A stretch of 64,000 nucleotides of DNA from a virus (taxonomy: Duplodnaviria > Heunggongvirae > Uroviricota > Caudoviricetes), in IMG/VR virus record IMGVR_UViG_2718218136_000001. The stretch is one strand, 5' to 3'. The notes beneath the pieces are model-generated. The model worked only from the letters and a program-made list of their open reading frames with translations. It was not told the origin of the DNA and searched no databases. Within the stretch, counting starts at the first letter, position 1, and each line of letters begins with the position of its first letter. Below, piece by piece: positions 16,960-64,000 of this stretch. A program made the position numbers and the translations under genes.

Positions 16960-18153
16960 GTGACCTGGGACGATCACAAGAAGAATTTTGCTCGCCTGGC
17001 GCGAGATGGTGGTTACACCATCGCACAATATGCCGCCGAGTTTAATCTCAACCCAAACACCGCACGTCGTTATCTCCGTGCATTCAAAGAAGACACCAGA
17101 ACAGCGGACAGCCGTAAGCCAAATAAGCCTGTCAGGAAACCACTAAAAAGCATGATCATTGATCACGCTAATGATCAACGTGCAGGTGATCACATTGTGG
17201 CTGAAGTGGCTGAAAAACAAAGAGTTAATGCTGTTGTCAGTGCCGCAGTCGAGAACGCTAAGCGCCAAAATAAGCGCATAAATGATCGTTCTGATGATCA
17301 TGACGTGATCACCCGCGCCCACCGTACCTTACGTGATCGCCTGGAACGCGACACCCTGGATGATGATGGTGAACGCTTTGAATTCGAAGCTGGCGATTAC
17401 CTGATAGATAACGTTGAAGCGCGGAAGGCCGCGCGCGCTATGTTGCGTCGGTCCGGGGCCGATGTTCTGGAAACCACTCTTCTGGAAAAGTCTCTTTCTC
17501 ATCTCCTTATGCTGGAGAACGCCAGGGATACGTGCATTCGCCTGGTGCAGGAAATGCGCGATCAGCAAAAAGACGATGATGAAGGTACTCCGCCTGAATA
17601 CCGTATCGCGAGCATGCTAAACAGCTGTTCCGCGCAGATAAGCAGCCTGATCAACACCATTTACAGCATCCGGAATAACTATCGAAAAGAAAGCCGGGAG
17701 GCGGAAAAGCACGCTTTATCTATGGGGCAAGCTGGCATTGTTAAGCTGGCATACGAACGAAAGCGTGAAAATAACTGGTCAGTGCTGGAAGCGGCTGAAT
17801 TCATCGAGGCGCATGGAGGAAAAGTGCCGCCCCTGATGCTGGAGCAAATCAAAGCCGATCTGCGTGCTCCTAAGACCAATACCGATGATGAGGAAAATCA
17901 AACAGCATCTGGCGCTCCATCACTTGAAGATCTGGATAAAATCGCGCGAGAACGGGCCGCCAGCCGCCGCGCTGATGCCGCATTGTGGATTGAGCATCGT
18001 AGAGAAGAAATTGCCGATATCGTCGATACAGGTGGTTATGGTGATGTCGATGCGGAAGGCATATCAAACGAAGCATGGCTTGAACAGGATCTGGACGAAG
18101 ACGAGGAGGAAGACGAAGAAGTTACCCGCAAACTGTACGGGGATGATGATTAA
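16960..18153 (+). CDS. pacA: Terminase small subunit PacA
   Basis: 397 aa, GTG start, [18 protein letters not shown]...; contains the pac hexamer cluster. Confidence 0.9.
17150..17315 (+). other. pac packaging site: two clusters of TGATCA/G hexamers (Dam GATC sites) inside pacA
   Basis: Four hexamers at 17153-17192 and three to four at 17283-17312, as in P1 pac. Confidence 0.8.
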
Positions 18154-19637
18154 TGGCCAGAAGTTGCGTAACGGACCCACGTTGGCGCGAGCTTGTGGCG
18201 CTATATCGTTATGACTGGATTGCGGCCGCTGATGTGTTGTTTGGGAAGACACCAACCTGGCAGCAGGATGAGATCATTGAGTCCACGCAGCAGGACGGCA
18301 GTTGGACAAGTGTGACCTCCGGCCATGGTACTGGTAAATCGGATATGACGAGTATCATTGCAATACTTTTCATCATGTTTTTCCCCGGCGCTCGCGTCAT
18401 TCTGGTCGCTAACAAAAGACAGCAAGTCCTTGATGGTATTTTCAAATACATAAAGAGCAATTGGGCTACTGCTGTTAGCAGATTCCCGTGGTTGTCGAAG
18501 TATTTCATTCTTACAGAAACGTCTTTTTTTGAGGTGACTGGCAAGGGTGTTTGGACAATATTGATAAAGTCCTGTCGCCCCGGAAATGAGGAGGCGTTGG
18601 CTGGTGAACACGCCGATCATCTCTTGTATATCATCGACGAAGCGTCGGGGGTGAGTGATAAAGCATTCAGTGTGATAACAGGTGCGCTGACCGGTAAGGA
18701 TAACCGTATTCTGCTTCTTTCCCAGCCTACGCGACCTTCAGGCTATTTCTACGATTCACACCACAGACTAGCTATTCGCCCGGGAAATCCTGATGGATTG
18801 TTTACTGCGATAATACTGAATAGTGAAGAATCTCCGCTTGTAGATGCAAAATTTATACGAGCAAAACTTGCGGAGTATGGCGGTCGTGATAACCCCATGT
18901 ACATGATCAAAGTACGTGGTGAATTTCCCAAATCTCAAGATGGCTTTCTTCTTGGTCGTGATGAGGTTGAGCGGGCGACGCGGCGAAAGGTCAAGATTGC
19001 CAAAGGATGGGGCTGGGTTGCATGTGTTGACGTTGCTGGTGGCACAGGACGAGATAAGTCCGTTATTAATATCATGATGGTGTCCGGCCAGCGAAATAAA
19101 CGCCGTGTAATCAACTATCGTATGCTGGAATACACAGACGTTACAGAAACGCAGTTAGCCGCCAAGATTTTCGCAGAATGTAACCCAGAACGGTTCCCGA
19201 ACATAACCATAGCTATTGATGGCGATGGCTTGGGGAAATCGACGGCTGATCTAATGTACGAACGCTATGGCATTACCGTCCAGCGTATCCGCTGGGGTAA
19301 AAAGATGCACAGCCGTGAAGATAAAAGCCTTTATTTCGATATGCGCGCTTTCGCGAATATTCAGGCGGCAGAAGCTGTAAAATCAGGGCGTATGAGGCTT
19401 GATAAGGGGGCTGCGACTATAGAGGAAGCATCAAAGATACCGGTAGGGATAAATTCCGCAGGTCAATGGAAGGTGATGTCAAAGGAAGATATGAAGAAAA
19501 AACTCAACCTGCACTCACCGGACCATTGGGATACATATTGTTTCGCTATGTTGGCGAACTATGTTCCCCAAGATGAAGTGCTTAGCGTCGAAGACGAAGC
19601 GCAGGTTGATGAAGCTCTGGCATGGCTTAACGAGTAA
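18153..19637 (+). CDS. pacB: Terminase large subunit PacB
   Basis: 494 aa; start overlaps pacA stop; ATPase-like GHGTGKS segment. Confidence 0.85.
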
Positions 19638-19640
19638 AAA

Positions 19641-19657
19641 CTTGCTCTAATAAATTG
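19641..19657 (+). promoter_or_regulatory. C1-operator-like site (cttgctctaataaattg) upstream of the icd-ant module
   Basis: 16/17 consensus match, 4 nt after the pacB stop. Confidence 0.55.
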
Positions 19658-19864
19658 TGTTTTTTGACTGCCGATGTTACATTGAACCTGACCTCTTGCG
19701 CCTTGAGGCATTTTCGGTTTATGCTTATCAGGCACCTCATTAAAACGGGTGCCGGGATTGAGACCCCGGATAATGTCAAAGGCGACACAGACGCCGAAAG
19801 CGTCTTTTTTTGTGTCATGCCATCGCACAGCCATACGTAGCGTTTAGCTCCGAAATCAATGGTA

Positions 19865-19955
19865 GTGCTGGCTGGGCTGCCGAAAGGCAGGCCGGTTCCC
19901 TTTGACGCCGGTAGTCTCAACCCAGTCAGTGCTACCGCCATTGAGATTGAGACCT
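19865..19955 (+). ncRNA. Candidate c4-like antisense RNA (immI repressor RNA)
   Basis: Hairpin gtctcaa...ttgagac (19914-19947) whose loop carries gctaccgc, complementary to gcggtagc at 19959-19966 just upstream of the icd RBS; direct repeat tagctcc at 19849 and 19963. Boundaries approximate. Confidence 0.35.
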
Positions 19956-19996
19956 CACGCGGTAGCTCCTTAACTTAGTCAAAGGAGGCTGCCATT

Positions 19997-20218
19997 ATGG
20001 CTACTGTCCCTACCCCAACTCATCCTGAATTCATCTGGCGCTTCTATTCCTGCCAGAAACGTCACTATCACTTCGTTATTGCACCGACAGAAGATGAGGC
20101 CCGTTCTCAGCTTCCTGACGCTCCCTGCATTTTCTCTGCCCGCTTTTCCACTGATTCGCGCAACTCTCTCAGTTACTGGTGCCTCCCTGTTAACGCTTCT
20201 GCTCAGGAGGGACTATGA
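19997..20218 (+). CDS. icd: Icd-like small protein (interference with cell division), translationally coupled to ant
   Basis: 73 aa; ATGA overlap with the ant start; paralog at 58961..59182. Confidence 0.6.
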   Translation: MATVPTPTHPEFIWRFYSCQKRHYHFVIAPTEDEARSQLPDAPCIFSARFSTDSRNSLSYWCLPVNASAQEGL

Positions 20219-21330
20219 GAACGTCATTAGTCACCCGTGAAGAAATGATTGAGGCAATTGAACAGCACACATCCTGTATCAGTACCAGGGATATACCGGG
20301 CGTTATTGCCAACTACTTCATGATCACCAAACAACTTTACCGGAGAAAGGACAAGAACGCTGTTCACCGCATTCTGTTGTCTGATATCCGCGAATACCTG
20401 CTCGAACAGGGGCATCTGAATTACGCAACCGTCGCAGCCGAAACACGCAAGGAGGCACACAGAATGAAAGCAACTAACGTTAAATCAGAAAAAACTCATG
20501 CACCTTCAGTTCAGGAATCGGAGCTGGTGGTTGTTCAGAATCAGTCTGATGAAATTCCCGTTCTGGAATGGCTGGGAGTGCGTGTAGTGACAACTAAGAT
20601 CCTTGCTAAGGGGTATGGGACAGATGCGGATAACATCAAGAAGAACTTTTCCCGTAATGCTGAACGTTTTTGTGAAGGCAAGCATTTCTATAAAGTTATT
20701 GGAGATGATTTGAACAATTTGCGGGTGACTTTAAGTAACTCACAAAATCCTATCTCTCCTAAAGCCCGCTCACTCATCCTCTGGACGGAACGCGGCGCAG
20801 CCCGCCACGCTAAAATGATCGAAACCGATCAGGCATGGGCATTCTTTGAAAAACTGGAAGACAGCTACTTCCGACAAAAAGAACAGCAACCGATCGCAAT
20901 CCCCCAGACGCTTCCAGAAGCTCTGCGCCTTGCTGCCGAACTGGCTGAACAAAAGCAACTTCTGGAACAGAAAGCCCATCAGCTAAATCAGCAGCTGGTG
21001 GCCGCAGCCCCCAAAGTCGATTTTGCCGACCGGGTATCAGTGGCTAAGGGGATCCTGATTGGGAATTTTGCAAAGGTCGTTGGACTTAAACAAAATGCGC
21101 TGTTTGCCTGGTTACGGGAGAACGGCATTCTGATAGCGTCCGGCGGCCGTAAAAATGTACCGTTCCAGCAGTACATAAACGCCGGATATTTCACAGTGAA
21201 AGAAGTGGTGCTGGATGATGAAGAGGGCTACCAGATACGGCTGACGCCCCAATTAACGGGGAAAGGCCAACAGTGGTTGACGCGTAAACTGCTCGATGCT
21301 GGCTTGTTAAAACCGGTGGCGGCTGAATAA
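20215..21330 (+). CDS. ant: Antirepressor Ant (N-terminal domain plus C-terminal antirepressor domain)
   Basis: 371 aa; C-terminal QQYINAGYFTVKEV...GKGQQWL block shared with the kilA-like gene and with the disrupted copy at 59179-60211. Confidence 0.7.
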   Translation: MRTSLVTREEMIEAIEQHTSCISTRDIPGVIANYFMITKQLYRRKDKNAVHRILLSDIREYLLEQGHLNYATVAAETRKEAHRMKATNVKSEKTHAPSVQESELVVVQNQSDEIPVLEWLGVRVVTTKILAKGYGTDADNIKKNFSRNAERFCEGKHFYKVIGDDLNNLRVTLSNSQNPISPKARSLILWTERGAARHAKMIETDQAWAFFEKLEDSYFRQKEQQPIAIPQTLPEALRLAAELAEQKQLLEQKAHQLNQQLVAAAPKVDFADRVSVAKGILIGNFAKVVGLKQNALFAWLRENGILIASGGRKNVPFQQYINAGYFTVKEVVLDDEEGYQIRLTPQLTGKGQQWLTRKLLDAGLLKPVAAE

Positions 21331-21362
21331 TGGAAGAATGCCCGGTTGATGCCGGGCATAAT

Positions 21363-22214
21363 TTATTGCGCGCTTTCGGGGTTGTCGTTTACTGGCTGCC
21401 CCTTCTTGGTTTTACGGCTGCGCGTAACTGATGCGGCTGACTTAACCTTTTTCTCTTCGCGAGTGATGGCAATTTGTTTTTTTACATTTTCAATATCTGC
21501 CAGGCGATATATTTTTGCTTGCGGCCAGCGGTCGCAGATGATCGGTTCTATGGAGTCATAAAGGCTAAATTTTGCTTTTTCGAATTCACCGTTGATGATG
21601 ATTCCATCACGGAGAGTTTCATCGCAGATAAACACGCCACACAGCGGTACATGGTAACTAACTGATTTACCATCATTGTAGTTAGGGCTACTGGAGATGT
21701 AGTGGACGCGCAGCATTGTTTCGCTAAAGCCGTGTACACGCATACGGAATTTTTCATCCTCCGGGTACTGCCTCATTAGCTCTTTTGTTGCTTCCAGGTT
21801 CTCTATGTATTTCGCACTGTGCTCATTGATCCCCGCGCTTTTTTGGATGCGAATGTCCTTATCAATCAGATGAATAATGCGGCCAGCGGTCATGTTGACG
21901 CTGTTCACAGCTTCTGTCTGATAAGTTGTAACCTTGCGCACACCGCGAAGGATGTTAGGCACTGGATATAAAATAGTCTTTGGGATATTGAGGTCTGGGT
22001 ACTGTTCCAGTTCCCGCGCCATTAAAGTCCATTTATCAATTTCAGCCTGAATGCTGTCCGTTTCTTTGAACGGTAGAACGACAACCGGGCGTACAGGACG
22101 ACCGTCGCTGGCGGTATCAACGTGTTGGGCGCGTGCAACAGCTTTTTTTAGAAAGAGATCCCTGAAGCTGACGAACTCCTGGTACAGTTGTTCGCCGTAG
22201 ACATAATTTATCAT
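21363..22214 (-). CDS. c1: C1 repressor of lysogeny
   Basis: 283 aa beginning MINYVYGEQLYQEFVSFRDL, matching P1 C1 as I recall it. Confidence 0.95.
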   Translation of the reverse strand: MINYVYGEQLYQEFVSFRDLFLKKAVARAQHVDTASDGRPVRPVVVLPFKETDSIQAEIDKWTLMARELEQYPDLNIPKTILYPVPNILRGVRKVTTYQTEAVNSVNMTAGRIIHLIDKDIRIQKSAGINEHSAKYIENLEATKELMRQYPEDEKFRMRVHGFSETMLRVHYISSSPNYNDGKSVSYHVPLCGVFICDETLRDGIIINGEFEKAKFSLYDSIEPIICDRWPQAKIYRLADIENVKKQIAITREEKKVKSAASVTRSRKTKKGQPVNDNPESAQ

Positions 22215-22308: not shown

Positions 22309-22325
22309 AGATTTATTAGTGCATT
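22309..22325 (-). promoter_or_regulatory. C1-operator-like site between coi and c1
   Basis: Reverse-orientation consensus match with three mismatches. Confidence 0.4.
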
Positions 22326-22534
22326 TATTGTGAGTCTAACTGGTTAGTTGCCATGAGATATTCGATTGTGTCAGTGAGGTCATCCAGGTCGTCTTGGGTG
22401 ATGCGGTACTCCTGATTGGATATCTTTGAGTAGTGTTCAGCAATGGCGCGGGCTGCGTCGGTTTCGGCAGGGTCTACAGATAAAGCGTTAGAGCAATGTC
22501 TAACGTCGTCGATGGTTGGTTGAATGAAAGCCAT
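22325..22534 (-). CDS. coi: Coi, C1 inactivator
   Basis: 69 aa directly upstream of c1 on the same strand. Confidence 0.85.
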   Translation of the reverse strand: MAFIQPTIDDVRHCSNALSVDPAETDAARAIAEHYSKISNQEYRITQDDLDDLTDTIEYLMATNQLDSQ

Positions 22535-22872: not shown

Positions 22873-22906
22873 TGATTTTTATGCGCAGCTGGACGTAAAC
22901 TCCTCT

Positions 22907-22940
22907 TCGGGCCTAATAACTTCGTATAGCATACATTATA
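22907..22940. other. lox recombination site, loxP variant (ATAACTTCGTATA-GCATACAT-TATACGAAGTAAA)
   Basis: 13-8-13 architecture; left arm and spacer identical to loxP (reverse orientation), right arm differs at two positions. Confidence 0.85.
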
Positions 22941-23138
22941 CGAAGTAAACTTAAGGGTTATTGAACATGAACAATTTACCTGTAAATCCATACAGTTCAA
23001 TACCTTATCAGGTCAAATAGTGATCACTTGATCATTTGATCAAGATTGCGCTACGTAAAATCTGTGAAAAGTTGGCAGTGTTAGTGCTCCAGATTTCGCG
23101 TAGCGCACTTAGCACCACCAATCAATCAGAGGTGAAAA

Positions 23139-23360
23139 ATGGGATATTCAGCTGCTAAAGTGTCCACTCATCTTGAGCTTGAGAAAAACCGTGGTTACTG
23201 GCGGGCAAAAGGGTTTGAGCGTGATAGTTACCAACTGTCATTATCTCGCGGTGAAGAGAAAATAGAACGCACGCGCGGTCGCTGGCGTTTCTATGACGAG
23301 AACCATAAACAGGTAAAGGCAGAGCCGATCCTGTACACTTTACTTAAAACCATTATCTGA
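23139..23360 (+). CDS. Hypothetical small protein between lox and cre
   Basis: 73-aa ORF with aggtga RBS; may instead be cre leader/promoter sequence. Confidence 0.3.
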   Translation: MGYSAAKVSTHLELEKNRGYWRAKGFERDSYQLSLSRGEEKIERTRGRWRFYDENHKQVKAEPILYTLLKTII

Positions 23361-23367
23361 GTGTTAA

Positions 23368-24399
23368 ATGTCCAATTTACTGACCGTACACCAAAATTTG
23401 CCTGCATTACCGGTCGATGCAACGAGTGATGATGTTCGCAAGAACCTGATGGACATGTTCAGGGATCGCCAGGCGTTTTCTGAGCATACATGGAAAATGC
23501 TTCTGTCCGTTTGCCGGTCGTGGGCGGCATGGTGCAAGTTGAATAACCGGAAGTGGTTTCCCGCAGAACCTGAAGATGTTCGCGATTATCTTCTATATCT
23601 TCAGGCGCGCGGTCTGGCAGTAAAAACTATCCAGCAACATTTGGGCCAGCTAAACATGCTTCATCGTCGGTCCGGGCTGCCACGACCAAGTGACAGCAAT
23701 GCTGTTTCACTGGTTATGCGGCGGATCCGAAAAGAAAACGTTGATGCCGGTGAACGTGCAAAACAGGCTCTAGCGTTCGAACGCACTGATTTCGACCAGG
23801 TTCGTTCACTCATGGAAAATAGCGATCGCTGCCAGGATATACGTAATCTGGCATTTCTGGGGATTGCTTATAACACCCTGTTACGTATAGCCGAAATTGC
23901 CAGGATCAGGGTTAAAGATATCTCACGTACTGACGGTGGGAGAATGTTAATCCATATTGGCAGAACGAAAACGCTGGTTAGCACCGCAGGTGTAGAGAAG
24001 GCACTTAGCCTGGGGGTAACTAAACTGGTCGAGCGATGGATTTCCGTCTCTGGTGTAGCTGATGATCCGAATAACTACCTGTTTTGCCGGGTCAGAAAAA
24101 ATGGTGTTGCCGCGCCATCTGCCACCAGCCAGCTATCAACTCGCGCCCTGGAAGGGATTTTTGAAGCAACTCATCGATTGATTTACGGCGCTAAGGATGA
24201 CTCTGGTCAGAGATACCTGGCCTGGTCTGGACACAGTGCCCGTGTCGGAGCCGCGCGAGATATGGCCCGCGCTGGAGTTTCAATACCGGAGATCATGCAA
24301 GCTGGTGGCTGGACCAATGTAAATATTGTCATGAACTATATCCGTAACCTGGATAGTGAAACAGGGGCAATGGTGCGCCTGCTGGAAGATGGCGATTAG
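23368..24399 (+). CDS. cre: Cre tyrosine recombinase
   Basis: 343 aa, MSNLLTVHQNLPALPVDATSD...; essentially the Cre sequence. Confidence 0.98.
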   Translation: MSNLLTVHQNLPALPVDATSDDVRKNLMDMFRDRQAFSEHTWKMLLSVCRSWAAWCKLNNRKWFPAEPEDVRDYLLYLQARGLAVKTIQQHLGQLNMLHRRSGLPRPSDSNAVSLVMRRIRKENVDAGERAKQALAFERTDFDQVRSLMENSDRCQDIRNLAFLGIAYNTLLRIAEIARIRVKDISRTDGGRMLIHIGRTKTLVSTAGVEKALSLGVTKLVERWISVSGVADDPNNYLFCRVRKNGVAAPSATSQLSTRALEGIFEATHRLIYGAKDDSGQRYLAWSGHSARVGAARDMARAGVSIPEIMQAGGWTNVNIVMNYIRNLDSETGAMVRLLEDGD

Positions 24400-24416
24400 C
24401 CATTAACGCTTAAATG

Positions 24417-26455: not shown

Positions 26456-27556
26456 ATGAGCGAATATGTTGAGTTAGCATACGCTGCCGCTACAAGCAGG
26501 CTTTGTCTATTTACCGGGACTGGCTTTTCAAAGGCAGTCTCGAACGGCGAAGCACCAACGTGGAAAGAACTATTAAAAAAAGTTTGCAGCAAAGTTCACA
26601 ACGCCAAACAGTTGGAAGACACGTTATTCCCTGATGATAAACCACCAGCACTGAGTCTTGAAGAAGCCGCACAAATACTATCTTTGAAGCTCAACATTGA
26701 AGGCAAGTCGATTTATGATGAAATTGTTGACATCATATCTCCAATACAACTTGGCGAAGATATATCAAATATAAAGGATTTTTTTCAAAAAAGAACATTT
26801 CGTGTCATTACAACGAATTATGACAAGTTAGCTGAATACTTAACTGGAGATGAGGAGGTTCAGTCTATTACCCCAGGCTTACCTATTCCTAAATATCCCT
26901 CCAAAGTTAAAATATATCATGTCCATGGTTCTATTGACTCTCCACAAAACATGATTGTTACATCAGAAGACTATTTTAGGTTTATAAACTCCGACACTTA
27001 TTTCTCTCGAAAACTTAGCACGATGCTGCATGAAAATACAGTTGCGATATTAGGCTATTCTTTAAGCGACACGAACCTAAAAGCAATTATAAATGATTAC
27101 AAAATATTCTCGAAAGGTAACACTCTGTGCTCTAATATATTTTTCATCTCTCGCAGTGAAGTAAGTCAAGATATGAAGGATTATTATTTTTATTGTTTTG
27201 GAATACGAGTAATTGACAACACCGAAATAGACTCTTTCTTTAAGAGATTGAGCATTAACATAATGTTAATTGAAGGCGTCATAGCAAGAGCCAGACAAAG
27301 TATAAAAAGAGTTTTATCAGGCACTTTTAACTATAAGGATGAATACATTAGATTAGAAGATTCATTCTATCAAATAACTTCCTCGATTATATCTGAGGGT
27401 TTCGACTGGAATGACGGACAAGTAGTTGATTTTTTTCAAGAGAATAATAAAACAAAAAAGAGACTTAACAAGAGAGAGTGGTGCTTGGGAGCAATACGAG
27501 CAGCTTGCAAAATGGCTTATATATTTCGGCAGCCTTTTAGAAATTGGTGGAACTAA
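26456..27556 (+). CDS. SIR2-family protein (putative NAD+-depleting defence effector), possibly continuing to 27746 after a +1 frameshift
   Basis: FTGTGFS, TTNYD and YHVHGS motifs typical of defence-associated SIR2 domains; AT-rich; overlapping ORF 27426..27746 in another frame looks like the true C-terminus. Confidence 0.65.
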   Translation: MSEYVELAYAAATSRLCLFTGTGFSKAVSNGEAPTWKELLKKVCSKVHNAKQLEDTLFPDDKPPALSLEEAAQILSLKLNIEGKSIYDEIVDIISPIQLGEDISNIKDFFQKRTFRVITTNYDKLAEYLTGDEEVQSITPGLPIPKYPSKVKIYHVHGSIDSPQNMIVTSEDYFRFINSDTYFSRKLSTMLHENTVAILGYSLSDTNLKAIINDYKIFSKGNTLCSNIFFISRSEVSQDMKDYYFYCFGIRVIDNTEIDSFFKRLSINIMLIEGVIARARQSIKRVLSGTFNYKDEYIRLEDSFYQITSSIISEGFDWNDGQVVDFFQENNKTKKRLNKREWCLGAIRAACKMAYIFRQPFRNWWN

Positions 27557-63906: not shown

Positions 63907-64000
63907 AATGTAAATATTGTCATGAACTATATCCGTAACCTGGATAGTGAAACAGGGGCAATGGTGCGCCTGCTGGAAGATGGCGATTAGCCATTAACGC
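63907..64000 (+). repeat. Duplicate of the cre 3' end and downstream flank (identical to 24316-24409), cut by the window edge
   Basis: 94 bp identical, including the codons for NVNIVMNYIRNLDSETGAMVRLLEDGD-stop. Confidence 0.85.

What the first reader, a model, noticed from the sequence alone, without database searches (positions are those of the whole stretch)
22907..22940. lox site differs from canonical loxP in one arm
Left arm and spacer are loxP (reverse orientation), but the right arm reads TATACGAAGTAAA rather than TATACGAAGTTAT, while Cre looks essentially canonical. Outer-arm variants are known to shift recombination equilibrium, so this native asymmetric site may behave differently from loxP.
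Basis: partly seen in the sequence, partly recalled or inferred. Interest (0 to 1): 0.45.

Follow-up and report, generated by a model that had tools for sequence, protein, structure and literature searches.

The report
Rare natural loxP outer-arm variant
This is the ordinary Cre recombination site of a P1-type phage-plasmid with a rare, naturally circulating two-base change at the outer tip of one arm, and published measurements of exactly this arm show Cre still recombines it about as well as standard loxP.

Summary
The lox site lies at 22916-22949 (+: ATAACTTCGTATA GCATACAT TATACGAAGTAAA). It differs from loxP only at 22947 and 22949 (TTAT>TAAA), the outermost and third bases of the cra/cre-proximal arm. 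The context is a typical P1-family immC-lox-cra-cre region, and Cre equals P1 Cre apart from E22D.

The allele is real and rare. It is in 6 of 674 lox-bearing E. coli complete-genome records, 8 of 667 PLSDB plasmids, 1 of about 100 IMG/VR loci and 1 metagenome contig. It sits on several flank and Cre haplotypes. No one-step intermediates were seen, and no Cre change co-varies with it.

A published loxP arm library measured this exact arm (TTTACTTCGTATA) at 51.2% cleavage, which is parity with the competing lox2272 pair. The base kept unchanged (T2) is the most strongly specified distal position.

The equilibrium-shift idea (lox66/lox71 logic) needs partners mutated in opposite arms. Here every recombination is between identical copies, so the products equal the substrates.

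Verdict: a functional, near-neutral polymorphism of a known site. Interest is low.

The parts
22916..22949 (+). lox recombination site (34 bp) of a P1-family element; same orientation as in the P1 reference (spacer GCATACAT reading toward cra/cre)
   Evidence: Single match to loxP with 2 mismatches and 0 expected by chance. It aligns column-for-column with the annotated loxP/lox features of X03453, AY751747 and AY751748.
22916..22928 (+). immC-proximal 13-bp arm, ATAACTTCGTATA, canonical
22929..22936 (+). 8-bp asymmetric spacer GCATACAT, canonical loxP spacer
22937..22949 (+). cra/cre-proximal 13-bp arm, TATACGAAGTAAA (outer-to-inner on the other strand: TTTACTTCGTATA). The variant bases are 22947 (arm position 3, A>T) and 22949 (arm position 1, A>T). 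Arm position 2 (T) is unchanged.
   Evidence: The same allele is in L054, L107-L112 and L115.
23139..23360 (+). cra (Cre-associated, 73 aa); 3 substitutions relative to P1 Cra
23368..24399 (+). cre, tyrosine recombinase acting on the lox site; P1 Cre with E22D only
   Evidence: Pfam Phage_integrase 9e-33
22969..22972 (.). Position of 'Dam methylation site 1 within the regulatory region of cre' (P1 coordinates 37-40). Here it reads GAAC instead of GATC (22971 T>A), so the site is lost.
   Evidence: P1 annotation; alignment; the same change is in metagenome contig L115
22978..22997 (+). LexA box (CTGT-N8-ACAG) homologous to the P1 annotation at coordinates 46-65; conserved
   Evidence: assigned by coordinate transfer from P1
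21363..22214 (-). c1 repressor gene (context, left of lox)
22325..22534 (-). coi (C1 inactivator) gene (context, left of lox)

Best explanation
The site is the functional lox site of a P1-family phage-plasmid. One Cre monomer binds each 13-bp arm. Two Cre-bound sites synapse, and strands are exchanged within the unchanged GCATACAT spacer. This circularises terminally redundant phage DNA after infection and resolves plasmid dimers. The TTAT>TAAA change at the outer tip of the cre-proximal arm is a rare natural polymorphism, present in about 1% of P1-like elements, that leaves recombination essentially intact. Both partners in every natural reaction carry the same allele, so the reaction is symmetric and no equilibrium shift occurs. 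Shown here: the sequence, the genomic context, the allele frequency, its independent occurrences and the absence of Cre co-variation. Taken from the literature: near-wild-type recombination of this exact arm. Inferred: near-neutrality in the native P1 setting.
For: The allele recurs in independent complete plasmids from South Korea, Colombia, China, Thailand and the Czech Republic. It also occurs in 2 E. fergusonii plasmids, IMG/VR locus L054 and metagenome contig L115. Frequencies are 6/674 E. coli complete-genome records and 8/667 PLSDB plasmids. The carriers have at least 4 right-flank haplotypes and 6 different Cre alleles, including one identical to P1 Cre, so no compensatory Cre change is needed. 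The exact arm gave 51.2% cleavage (486 vs 464 reads) against a lox2272 competitor pair, and the single changes A1T and A3T gave 54.2% and 57.2% (PMC9586403 S1 File). Rec-seq reports a single direct Cre contact in the five distal bases, with the strongest preference at position 16, which is arm position 2 and is unchanged here (PMC6486577). lox66 and lox71 recombine with P1 loxP at wild-type efficiency in P1 transduction (PMC2841073). There is only one lox in the window.
Against: The yeast library assay was close to saturation (about 3.5% uncleaved) and had only one variant arm among the four in the synapse. In P1, two of four arms would be variant and Cre is scarce, so a modest defect could have gone unseen. 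Randomised-arm selection shows a preference for ATA at positions 1-3 (PMC2018622). The canonical arm is held at about 99% frequency while the immediately flanking bases are polymorphic at 10-50%. That pattern is compatible with the TAAA allele being slightly deleterious and not strictly neutral. No recombination assay of this allele in a P1 context exists in what I could search.
Confidence: 0.85

Rival explanations
1. Attenuated or LE/RE-like site. The variant arm binds Cre appreciably more weakly, so at native Cre levels this lox recombines more slowly or with altered directionality or equilibrium compared with loxP.
For: Positions 1 and 3 show nucleotide preference in a randomised-arm selection. 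lox66 transposons gave 5-10-fold fewer BAC end-deletions than loxP in one setting. The allele is kept rare, at about 1%.
Against: The exact arm is at parity in the library assay. The most strongly specified distal base is unchanged. An equilibrium shift requires oppositely mutated partners, and these do not exist here. All natural variants found in this arm are the same allele, and the left-arm variants ATAG and ATAAT occur in other elements. The allele persists on many backgrounds without a Cre change.
Confidence: 0.1
2. The change is selected for a regulatory role and not for recombination. For example, it creates a TAAACT hexamer identical to the -10 of P4cre, or it forms a linked regulatory haplotype with the loss of Dam site 1, altering cra/cre or coi transcription through lox.
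For: TAAACT arises at 22946-22951 and duplicates the P4cre -10 hexamer at 22896-22901. The window and L115 also lose Dam site 1, 22 bp away.
Against: The consensus scan finds no promoter-like site in this region in either the window or a canonical locus, and there is no usable -35. Eight other TAAA carriers keep GATC, so the two changes are not obligatorily linked. Dam site 1 is itself polymorphic, reading GATT in about 12 of 100 IMG/VR loci.
Confidence: 0.04
3. Sequencing or assembly error in this window.
For: Three T>A changes fall within 25 bp, one of them inside a GATC. Methylated motifs can cause systematic base-calling errors in some platforms (my own knowledge).
Against: The identical TAAA arm is present in at least 10 independent public sequences from different laboratories, and TAAA+GAAC together occur in an independent metagenome contig.
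Confidence: 0.01

Closest known systems
loxP of bacteriophage P1 (X03453 nt 35-68; NC_005856 coordinates 94784-94800 plus 1-17)
   Same: It has the same 34-bp architecture, an identical left arm, an identical 8-bp spacer and 11/13 of the right arm. It has the same position between imcA/coi/c1 and cra/cre, and the same recombinase (342/343 aa).
   Different: There are two transversions, at arm positions 1 and 3 of the cre-proximal arm (22949, 22947).
Synthetic library variant 'TTTACTTCGTATA' of the right recombinase-binding element (Yamauchi et al. 2022, PMC9586403, S1 File)
   Same: It is the identical 34-bp sequence, with the same arm relative to the GCATACAT spacer. It was measured at 51.2% cleavage, which is parity.
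   Different: That site was made by random mutagenesis and tested in yeast against a wild-type loxP partner. Here the allele is native to a phage-plasmid and recombines with a copy of itself.
LE/RE mutant sites lox66 and lox71 (outer five bases of one arm replaced)
   Same: The changes are confined to the outer end of one arm, with an unchanged spacer. Such sites still recombine with loxP.
   Different: lox66 and lox71 change five bases and are used as an opposite-arm pair so that the product is a doubly mutated, poorly bound site. Here only two bases change and no opposite-arm partner exists, so the equilibrium-shifting mechanism is absent. The exact lox66/71 sequences are from my own knowledge and were not checked here.
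Other rare natural lox alleles of P1-like elements found here
   Same: They are rare single-locus departures from an otherwise about 94-99% invariant site: left-arm ATAG (L062, L097, L253) and ATAAT (L313).
   Different: Those are single substitutions in the other arm. Two further alleles change the spacer: GCGAACAT in L243 and NZ_CP122664.1, and GCGTTCAT in L250. From established knowledge of spacer mutants, those would be expected to alter partner specificity, unlike TAAA.

Membership tests
P1-type lox site (loxP family) | Two 13-bp inverted repeats flanking an 8-bp asymmetric spacer (34 bp) | tested here: met
   22916-22928 / 22929-22936 / 22937-22949. The arms are complementary at 11 of 13 positions.
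P1-type lox site (loxP family) | Spacer identical to loxP (GCATACAT / ATGTATGC), which determines partner compatibility | tested here: met
   The spacer is identical in the window and in the P1, P7, phiW39, SJ46 and 813R1 references.
P1-type lox site (loxP family) | Located between the immC genes (c1-coi-imcB/A) and cra-cre in a P1-family genome | tested here: met
   ORF map. The region is 96-98% identical to P1-family records, with the lox feature annotated at the homologous position.
P1-type lox site (loxP family) | Adjacent cognate Cre tyrosine recombinase | tested here: met
   cre is at 23368-24399 and differs from P1 Cre only by E22D. Pfam Phage_integrase.
P1-type lox site (loxP family) | Recombined by Cre | not testable with these tools
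   No experiment was possible. A published measurement of the identical 34-bp sequence gave 51.2% cleavage against a lox2272 competitor in yeast (PMC9586403).
LE/RE (lox66/lox71-type) equilibrium-shifting sites | Outer bases of one arm mutated, spacer unchanged | tested here: met
   Two of the three outermost bases of one arm are changed.
LE/RE (lox66/lox71-type) equilibrium-shifting sites | A partner site mutated in the opposite arm, so that recombination yields a doubly mutated, poorly bound product | tested here: not met
   The window has only one lox. Natural partners are identical copies. No element was found that carries the mirror-image change.
LE/RE (lox66/lox71-type) equilibrium-shifting sites | Mutated arm has clearly reduced Cre affinity | not testable with these tools
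   Not measured here. The published excision data for this arm show no reduction.

The most novel reading that the evidence does not exclude
At the low native Cre level of a P1 lysogen, the TAAA arm, present on two of the four arms in every synapse, measurably weakens Cre occupancy of the cre-proximal half-site. That would slow dimer resolution or cyclisation, or relieve a Cre roadblock on transcription passing through lox (P4cre toward cra-cre, P2coi toward coi). The allele would then be a natural tuning variant of the Cre-lox module and not a neutral one. Its appearance on several haplotypes without one-step intermediates could then reflect either selection-driven spread or a recurrent templated double mutation.
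Probability: 0.1. Interest if true: 0.3.

Novelty: new member of a known kind. Interest (0 to 1): 0.1.

Why it matters
It matters little for biology. The result documents that the most widely used recombination site in genetics is not strictly invariant in nature. About 1% of P1-like phage-plasmids carry a two-base outer-arm allele that Cre tolerates, which agrees with specificity profiling showing weak read-out of the distal bases. The practical value is modest. Exact-match loxP screens will miss such native sites. Annotation pipelines leave them unlabelled: every carrier record shows 'none' under the match. The allele is a convenient natural marker for tracing recombination between P1-like plasmids on either side of lox.

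Tried and rejected
(1) Sequencing error. Rejected because the identical allele occurs in at least 10 independent sequences.

(2) Cre-lox co-evolution. Rejected because TAAA carriers have six different Cre alleles, one of them identical to P1 Cre, and no substitution is shared.

(3) A single clonal lineage. Not supported, because over 2.2 kb most TAAA carriers have canonical loci as nearest neighbours. On the right flank only the window, L108/L112 and L110 group together (11-12 differences), and the window's left flank is a different haplotype (34-35 differences). I could not decide between recombinational spread and recurrent mutation.

(4) A new promoter created by the TAAACT hexamer. The consensus scan finds nothing in either the window or a canonical locus.

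(5) A second lox or pseudo-lox partner in the window. None was found.

(6) Species-representative genomes as a denominator. This was unusable, because the loxP-core hits there are 454 paired-end linker remnants in unrelated draft genomes.

(7) Sauer & McDermott 2004, on lox in P1 relatives. The paper is not held in the library. Its GenBank records (P7 and phiW39) were used instead and are canonical.

(8) A templated origin from the upstream GACGTAAACTC (22893-22903), which resembles the variant GAAGTAAACTT. I noted this but had no way to test it.

(9) The 2026 ITC preprint on indirect read-out. It does not address the outermost positions.

Full report
**1. Observation.**
Reading the window and searching for loxP with up to three mismatches gives exactly one site, at 22916-22949. 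None of 100 shuffles produced a match. The coordinates in the finding (22907-22940) are 9 nt too far left. On the + strand the site is ATAACTTCGTATA-GCATACAT-TATACGAAGTAAA. The left arm and spacer are canonical. The right arm differs from TATACGAAGTTAT at 22947 and 22949, both T>A. [quoted passage not shown] No other lox or credible half-site exists in the 64 kb.

**2. Context.**
The ORF map shows pacB (18153-19637), an extra 371-aa ORF, c1 (21363-22214, minus strand), coi (22325-22534, minus strand), lox, cra (23139-23360) and cre (23368-24399). The 1.1 kb around lox is 96-98% identical to P1, P7, phiW39, SJ46, RCS47 and other Punavirus records. In three of those records a lox/loxP feature is annotated at the homologous position. 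An alignment shows that P1, P7, phiW39, 813R1 and SJ46 all carry the canonical ...GAAGTTAT. Cre differs from the P1 reference protein by E22D only, and Pfam recognises the tyrosine-recombinase domain.

The curated P1 annotation places lox between P4cre, which reads rightward into cra-cre, and P2coi, which reads leftward. A LexA box lies to the right of lox and is conserved in the window at 22978-22997. 'Dam methylation site 1 within the regulatory region of cre' also lies to the right. In the window it reads GAAC instead of GATC (22971 T>A).

**3. Is the allele real, and how common is it?**
- A 37-nt query that distinguishes the alleles found the TAAA arm at 100% identity over its full length in 6 of 674 lox-bearing E. 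coli complete-genome records. These are pFORC64.1, p28Eco12, pEC13-3, pPEC399_2, pCUVET19-970.2 and a plasmid of strain 1296KP.
- The same query found it in 8 of 667 PLSDB plasmids, two of them from E. fergusonii. The sequences were read directly.
- The identity band that would hold one-step intermediates (TTAA or TAAT) is empty in both collections.
- An exact-core scan of IMG/VR gave about 100 natural sites. One has TAAA (L054) and two have ATAG in the other arm.
- One metagenome contig (L115) carries TAAA together with the GAAC change and Cre E22D. It is 99.0% identical to the window from c1 to cre.

The allele is therefore a genuine, geographically dispersed polymorphism at about 1% frequency. 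It is not an error.

**4. Unbiased survey.**
The core scan could not see inner-arm or spacer variants, so I also collected loci through the Cre protein and read whatever lay upstream.
- Of 65 readable sites, 61 are canonical.
- Two have single left-arm changes (ATAG, ATAAT).
- Two have spacer changes. GCGAACAT is also present in one complete E. coli plasmid. GCGTTCAT has no match in E. coli complete genomes.
- Three loci lack the site precisely. The missing stretch equals the maximal match to the 454 Titanium paired-end linker, which contains loxP. The same linker flanks appear around loxP 'hits' in unrelated draft genomes. These are trimming artefacts.

**5. Population structure.**
Over 2.2 kb, TAAA carriers are generally closer to canonical loci than to each other. 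I analysed the flanks separately, because Cre crossover in the spacer uncouples them. On the right flank the window groups with L110 and L108/L112 at 11-12 differences, against 17 for the nearest canonical loci. L107, L109 and L111 sit on other haplotypes. The window's left flank is a distinct haplotype, with 34-35 differences from all the other carriers. No Cre substitution is shared among carriers, and pFORC64.1 combines TAAA with a Cre identical to P1's. No compensatory change in the recombinase accompanies the arm variant.

**6. Functional evidence from the literature.**
- Yamauchi et al. 2022 (PMC9586403) mutagenised exactly this arm of loxP, with the same GCATACAT orientation, and scored cleavage in competition with a lox2272 pair. 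Their S1 File lists TTTACTTCGTATA with 486 loxP-side and 464 lox2272-side reads, which is 51.2%. A1T alone gave 54.2% and A3T alone gave 57.2%. Damaging double mutants fall to 30-45%.
- Bessen et al. 2019 (PMC6486577) report that the five distal bases receive a single direct contact (Lys244). They find that position 16, which is arm position 2 and is unchanged here, is the most strongly specified of them.
- Sheren et al. 2007 (PMC2018622) found a statistical preference for ATA at positions 1-3 when the whole arm is randomised. A small effect therefore remains possible.
- Chatterjee et al. 2010 (PMC2841073) showed that lox66 and lox71, with five outer bases replaced, are recombined with phage P1's own loxP as efficiently as wild type in P1 transduction. 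They were 5-10-fold less efficient in a more demanding BAC end-deletion assay.

**7.
From established knowledge of Cre-lox, a Cre monomer binds each arm, two sites synapse as a tetramer, and exchange occurs inside the spacer. The left arm of one partner is therefore joined to the right arm of the other. The LE/RE trick works because lox71 x lox66 yields one wild-type site and one doubly mutated site that Cre binds poorly.

In this element there is one lox, and the natural substrates are two copies of it. These are the terminally redundant ends after infection, or the two copies in a plasmid dimer. Every product is again canonical-left plus TAAA-right, so the reaction is symmetric and no equilibrium shift can arise. 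Recombination with a co-resident canonical P1-like element only swaps flanks and regenerates one site of each type. The only possible effect is a change in Cre occupancy of one half-site, and the available measurement shows none.

**8. Alternatives examined.**
The variant creates a TAAACT hexamer identical to the P4cre -10, but the promoter scan finds no promoter-like arrangement in the variant or in a canonical locus. The nearby Dam-site loss is not obligatorily linked, because eight carriers keep GATC. That site is also polymorphic elsewhere, reading GATT in about 12% of IMG/VR loci.

**9. Verdict.**
This is a correctly spotted but ordinary feature: a rare, apparently near-neutral natural allele of loxP in a P1-like phage-plasmid. 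I found no paper describing it as a natural allele, and public records leave it unannotated. The identical sequence has already been tested synthetically. Novelty is 'new member of a known kind' and interest is about 0.1.

Noticed in passing
window 22969-22972: The GATC annotated in P1 as 'Dam methylation site 1 within the regulatory region of cre' reads GAAC here (22971 T>A). It lies next to the P2coi -10. The same change is in metagenome contig L115, while the other TAAA carriers keep GATC. About 12 of 100 IMG/VR loci read GATT, so this Dam site is dispensable or polymorphic.
   Followed up: partly
window 63907-64000 (and 24316-24409): The last 94 nt of the window are a 100% direct repeat of the final 84 nt of cre plus 10 nt downstream. 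The join is abrupt, with no microhomology, and falls inside a tail/baseplate-region gene that continues normally in hundreds of P1-like plasmids. This is either a rearrangement, such as a deletion within a multimer, or an assembly chimera. The sequence beyond the window end is needed to decide.
   Followed up: partly
window 19645-21363: A ~1.7-kb segment between pacB and c1 carries a 371-aa ORF (20215-21330) with ORF6N and ANT/KilAC antirepressor domains. It is absent from the otherwise 98.7-99% identical contig L115, so it is an accessory insertion next to the immunity region.
   Followed up: partly
window 26456-27556: A 366-aa SIR2_2-domain protein lies directly after mat and before a 2255-aa ORF on the minus strand, about where I recall P1 carrying its res/mod genes. 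Its best PADLOC matches are PDC-S25, ThsA and LmuA-like. It is a likely anti-phage defence gene in a variable region.
   Followed up: partly
L243:~742-806; L250:~742-806; NZ_CP122664.1:13436-13500: These are natural lox alleles with altered spacers: GCGAACAT (an IMG/VR locus plus one complete E. coli plasmid) and GCGTTCAT (one IMG/VR locus only). From what is known of spacer mutants, they should not recombine with loxP. That makes them functionally more interesting than the TAAA arm allele.
   Followed up: partly
L242, L247, L271 (upstream of cre); L116-L235: Three P1-like loci lack the lox site precisely. The deleted stretch equals the maximal match to the loxP-containing 454 Titanium paired-end linker. 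Many unrelated draft genomes (Gemmata, Paracaedibacter, Legionella tunisiensis and others) contain loxP with the linker flanks cgta...acga. Both are library or trimming artefacts in public assemblies.
   Followed up: yes
L062, L097, L253 (ATAG); L313 (ATAAT): Rare single-base variants of the other, immC-proximal lox arm, at arm positions 4 and 5. Their frequency in complete genomes was not determined.
   Followed up: no
window 22893-22903 vs 22942-22952: The variant arm end GAAGTAAACTT resembles the upstream GACGTAAACTC (a shared GTAAACT), which contains the P4cre -10 hexamer. This could be a template for a one-step double substitution, and it would fit the absence of single-step intermediates. 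It is purely speculative.
   Followed up: no
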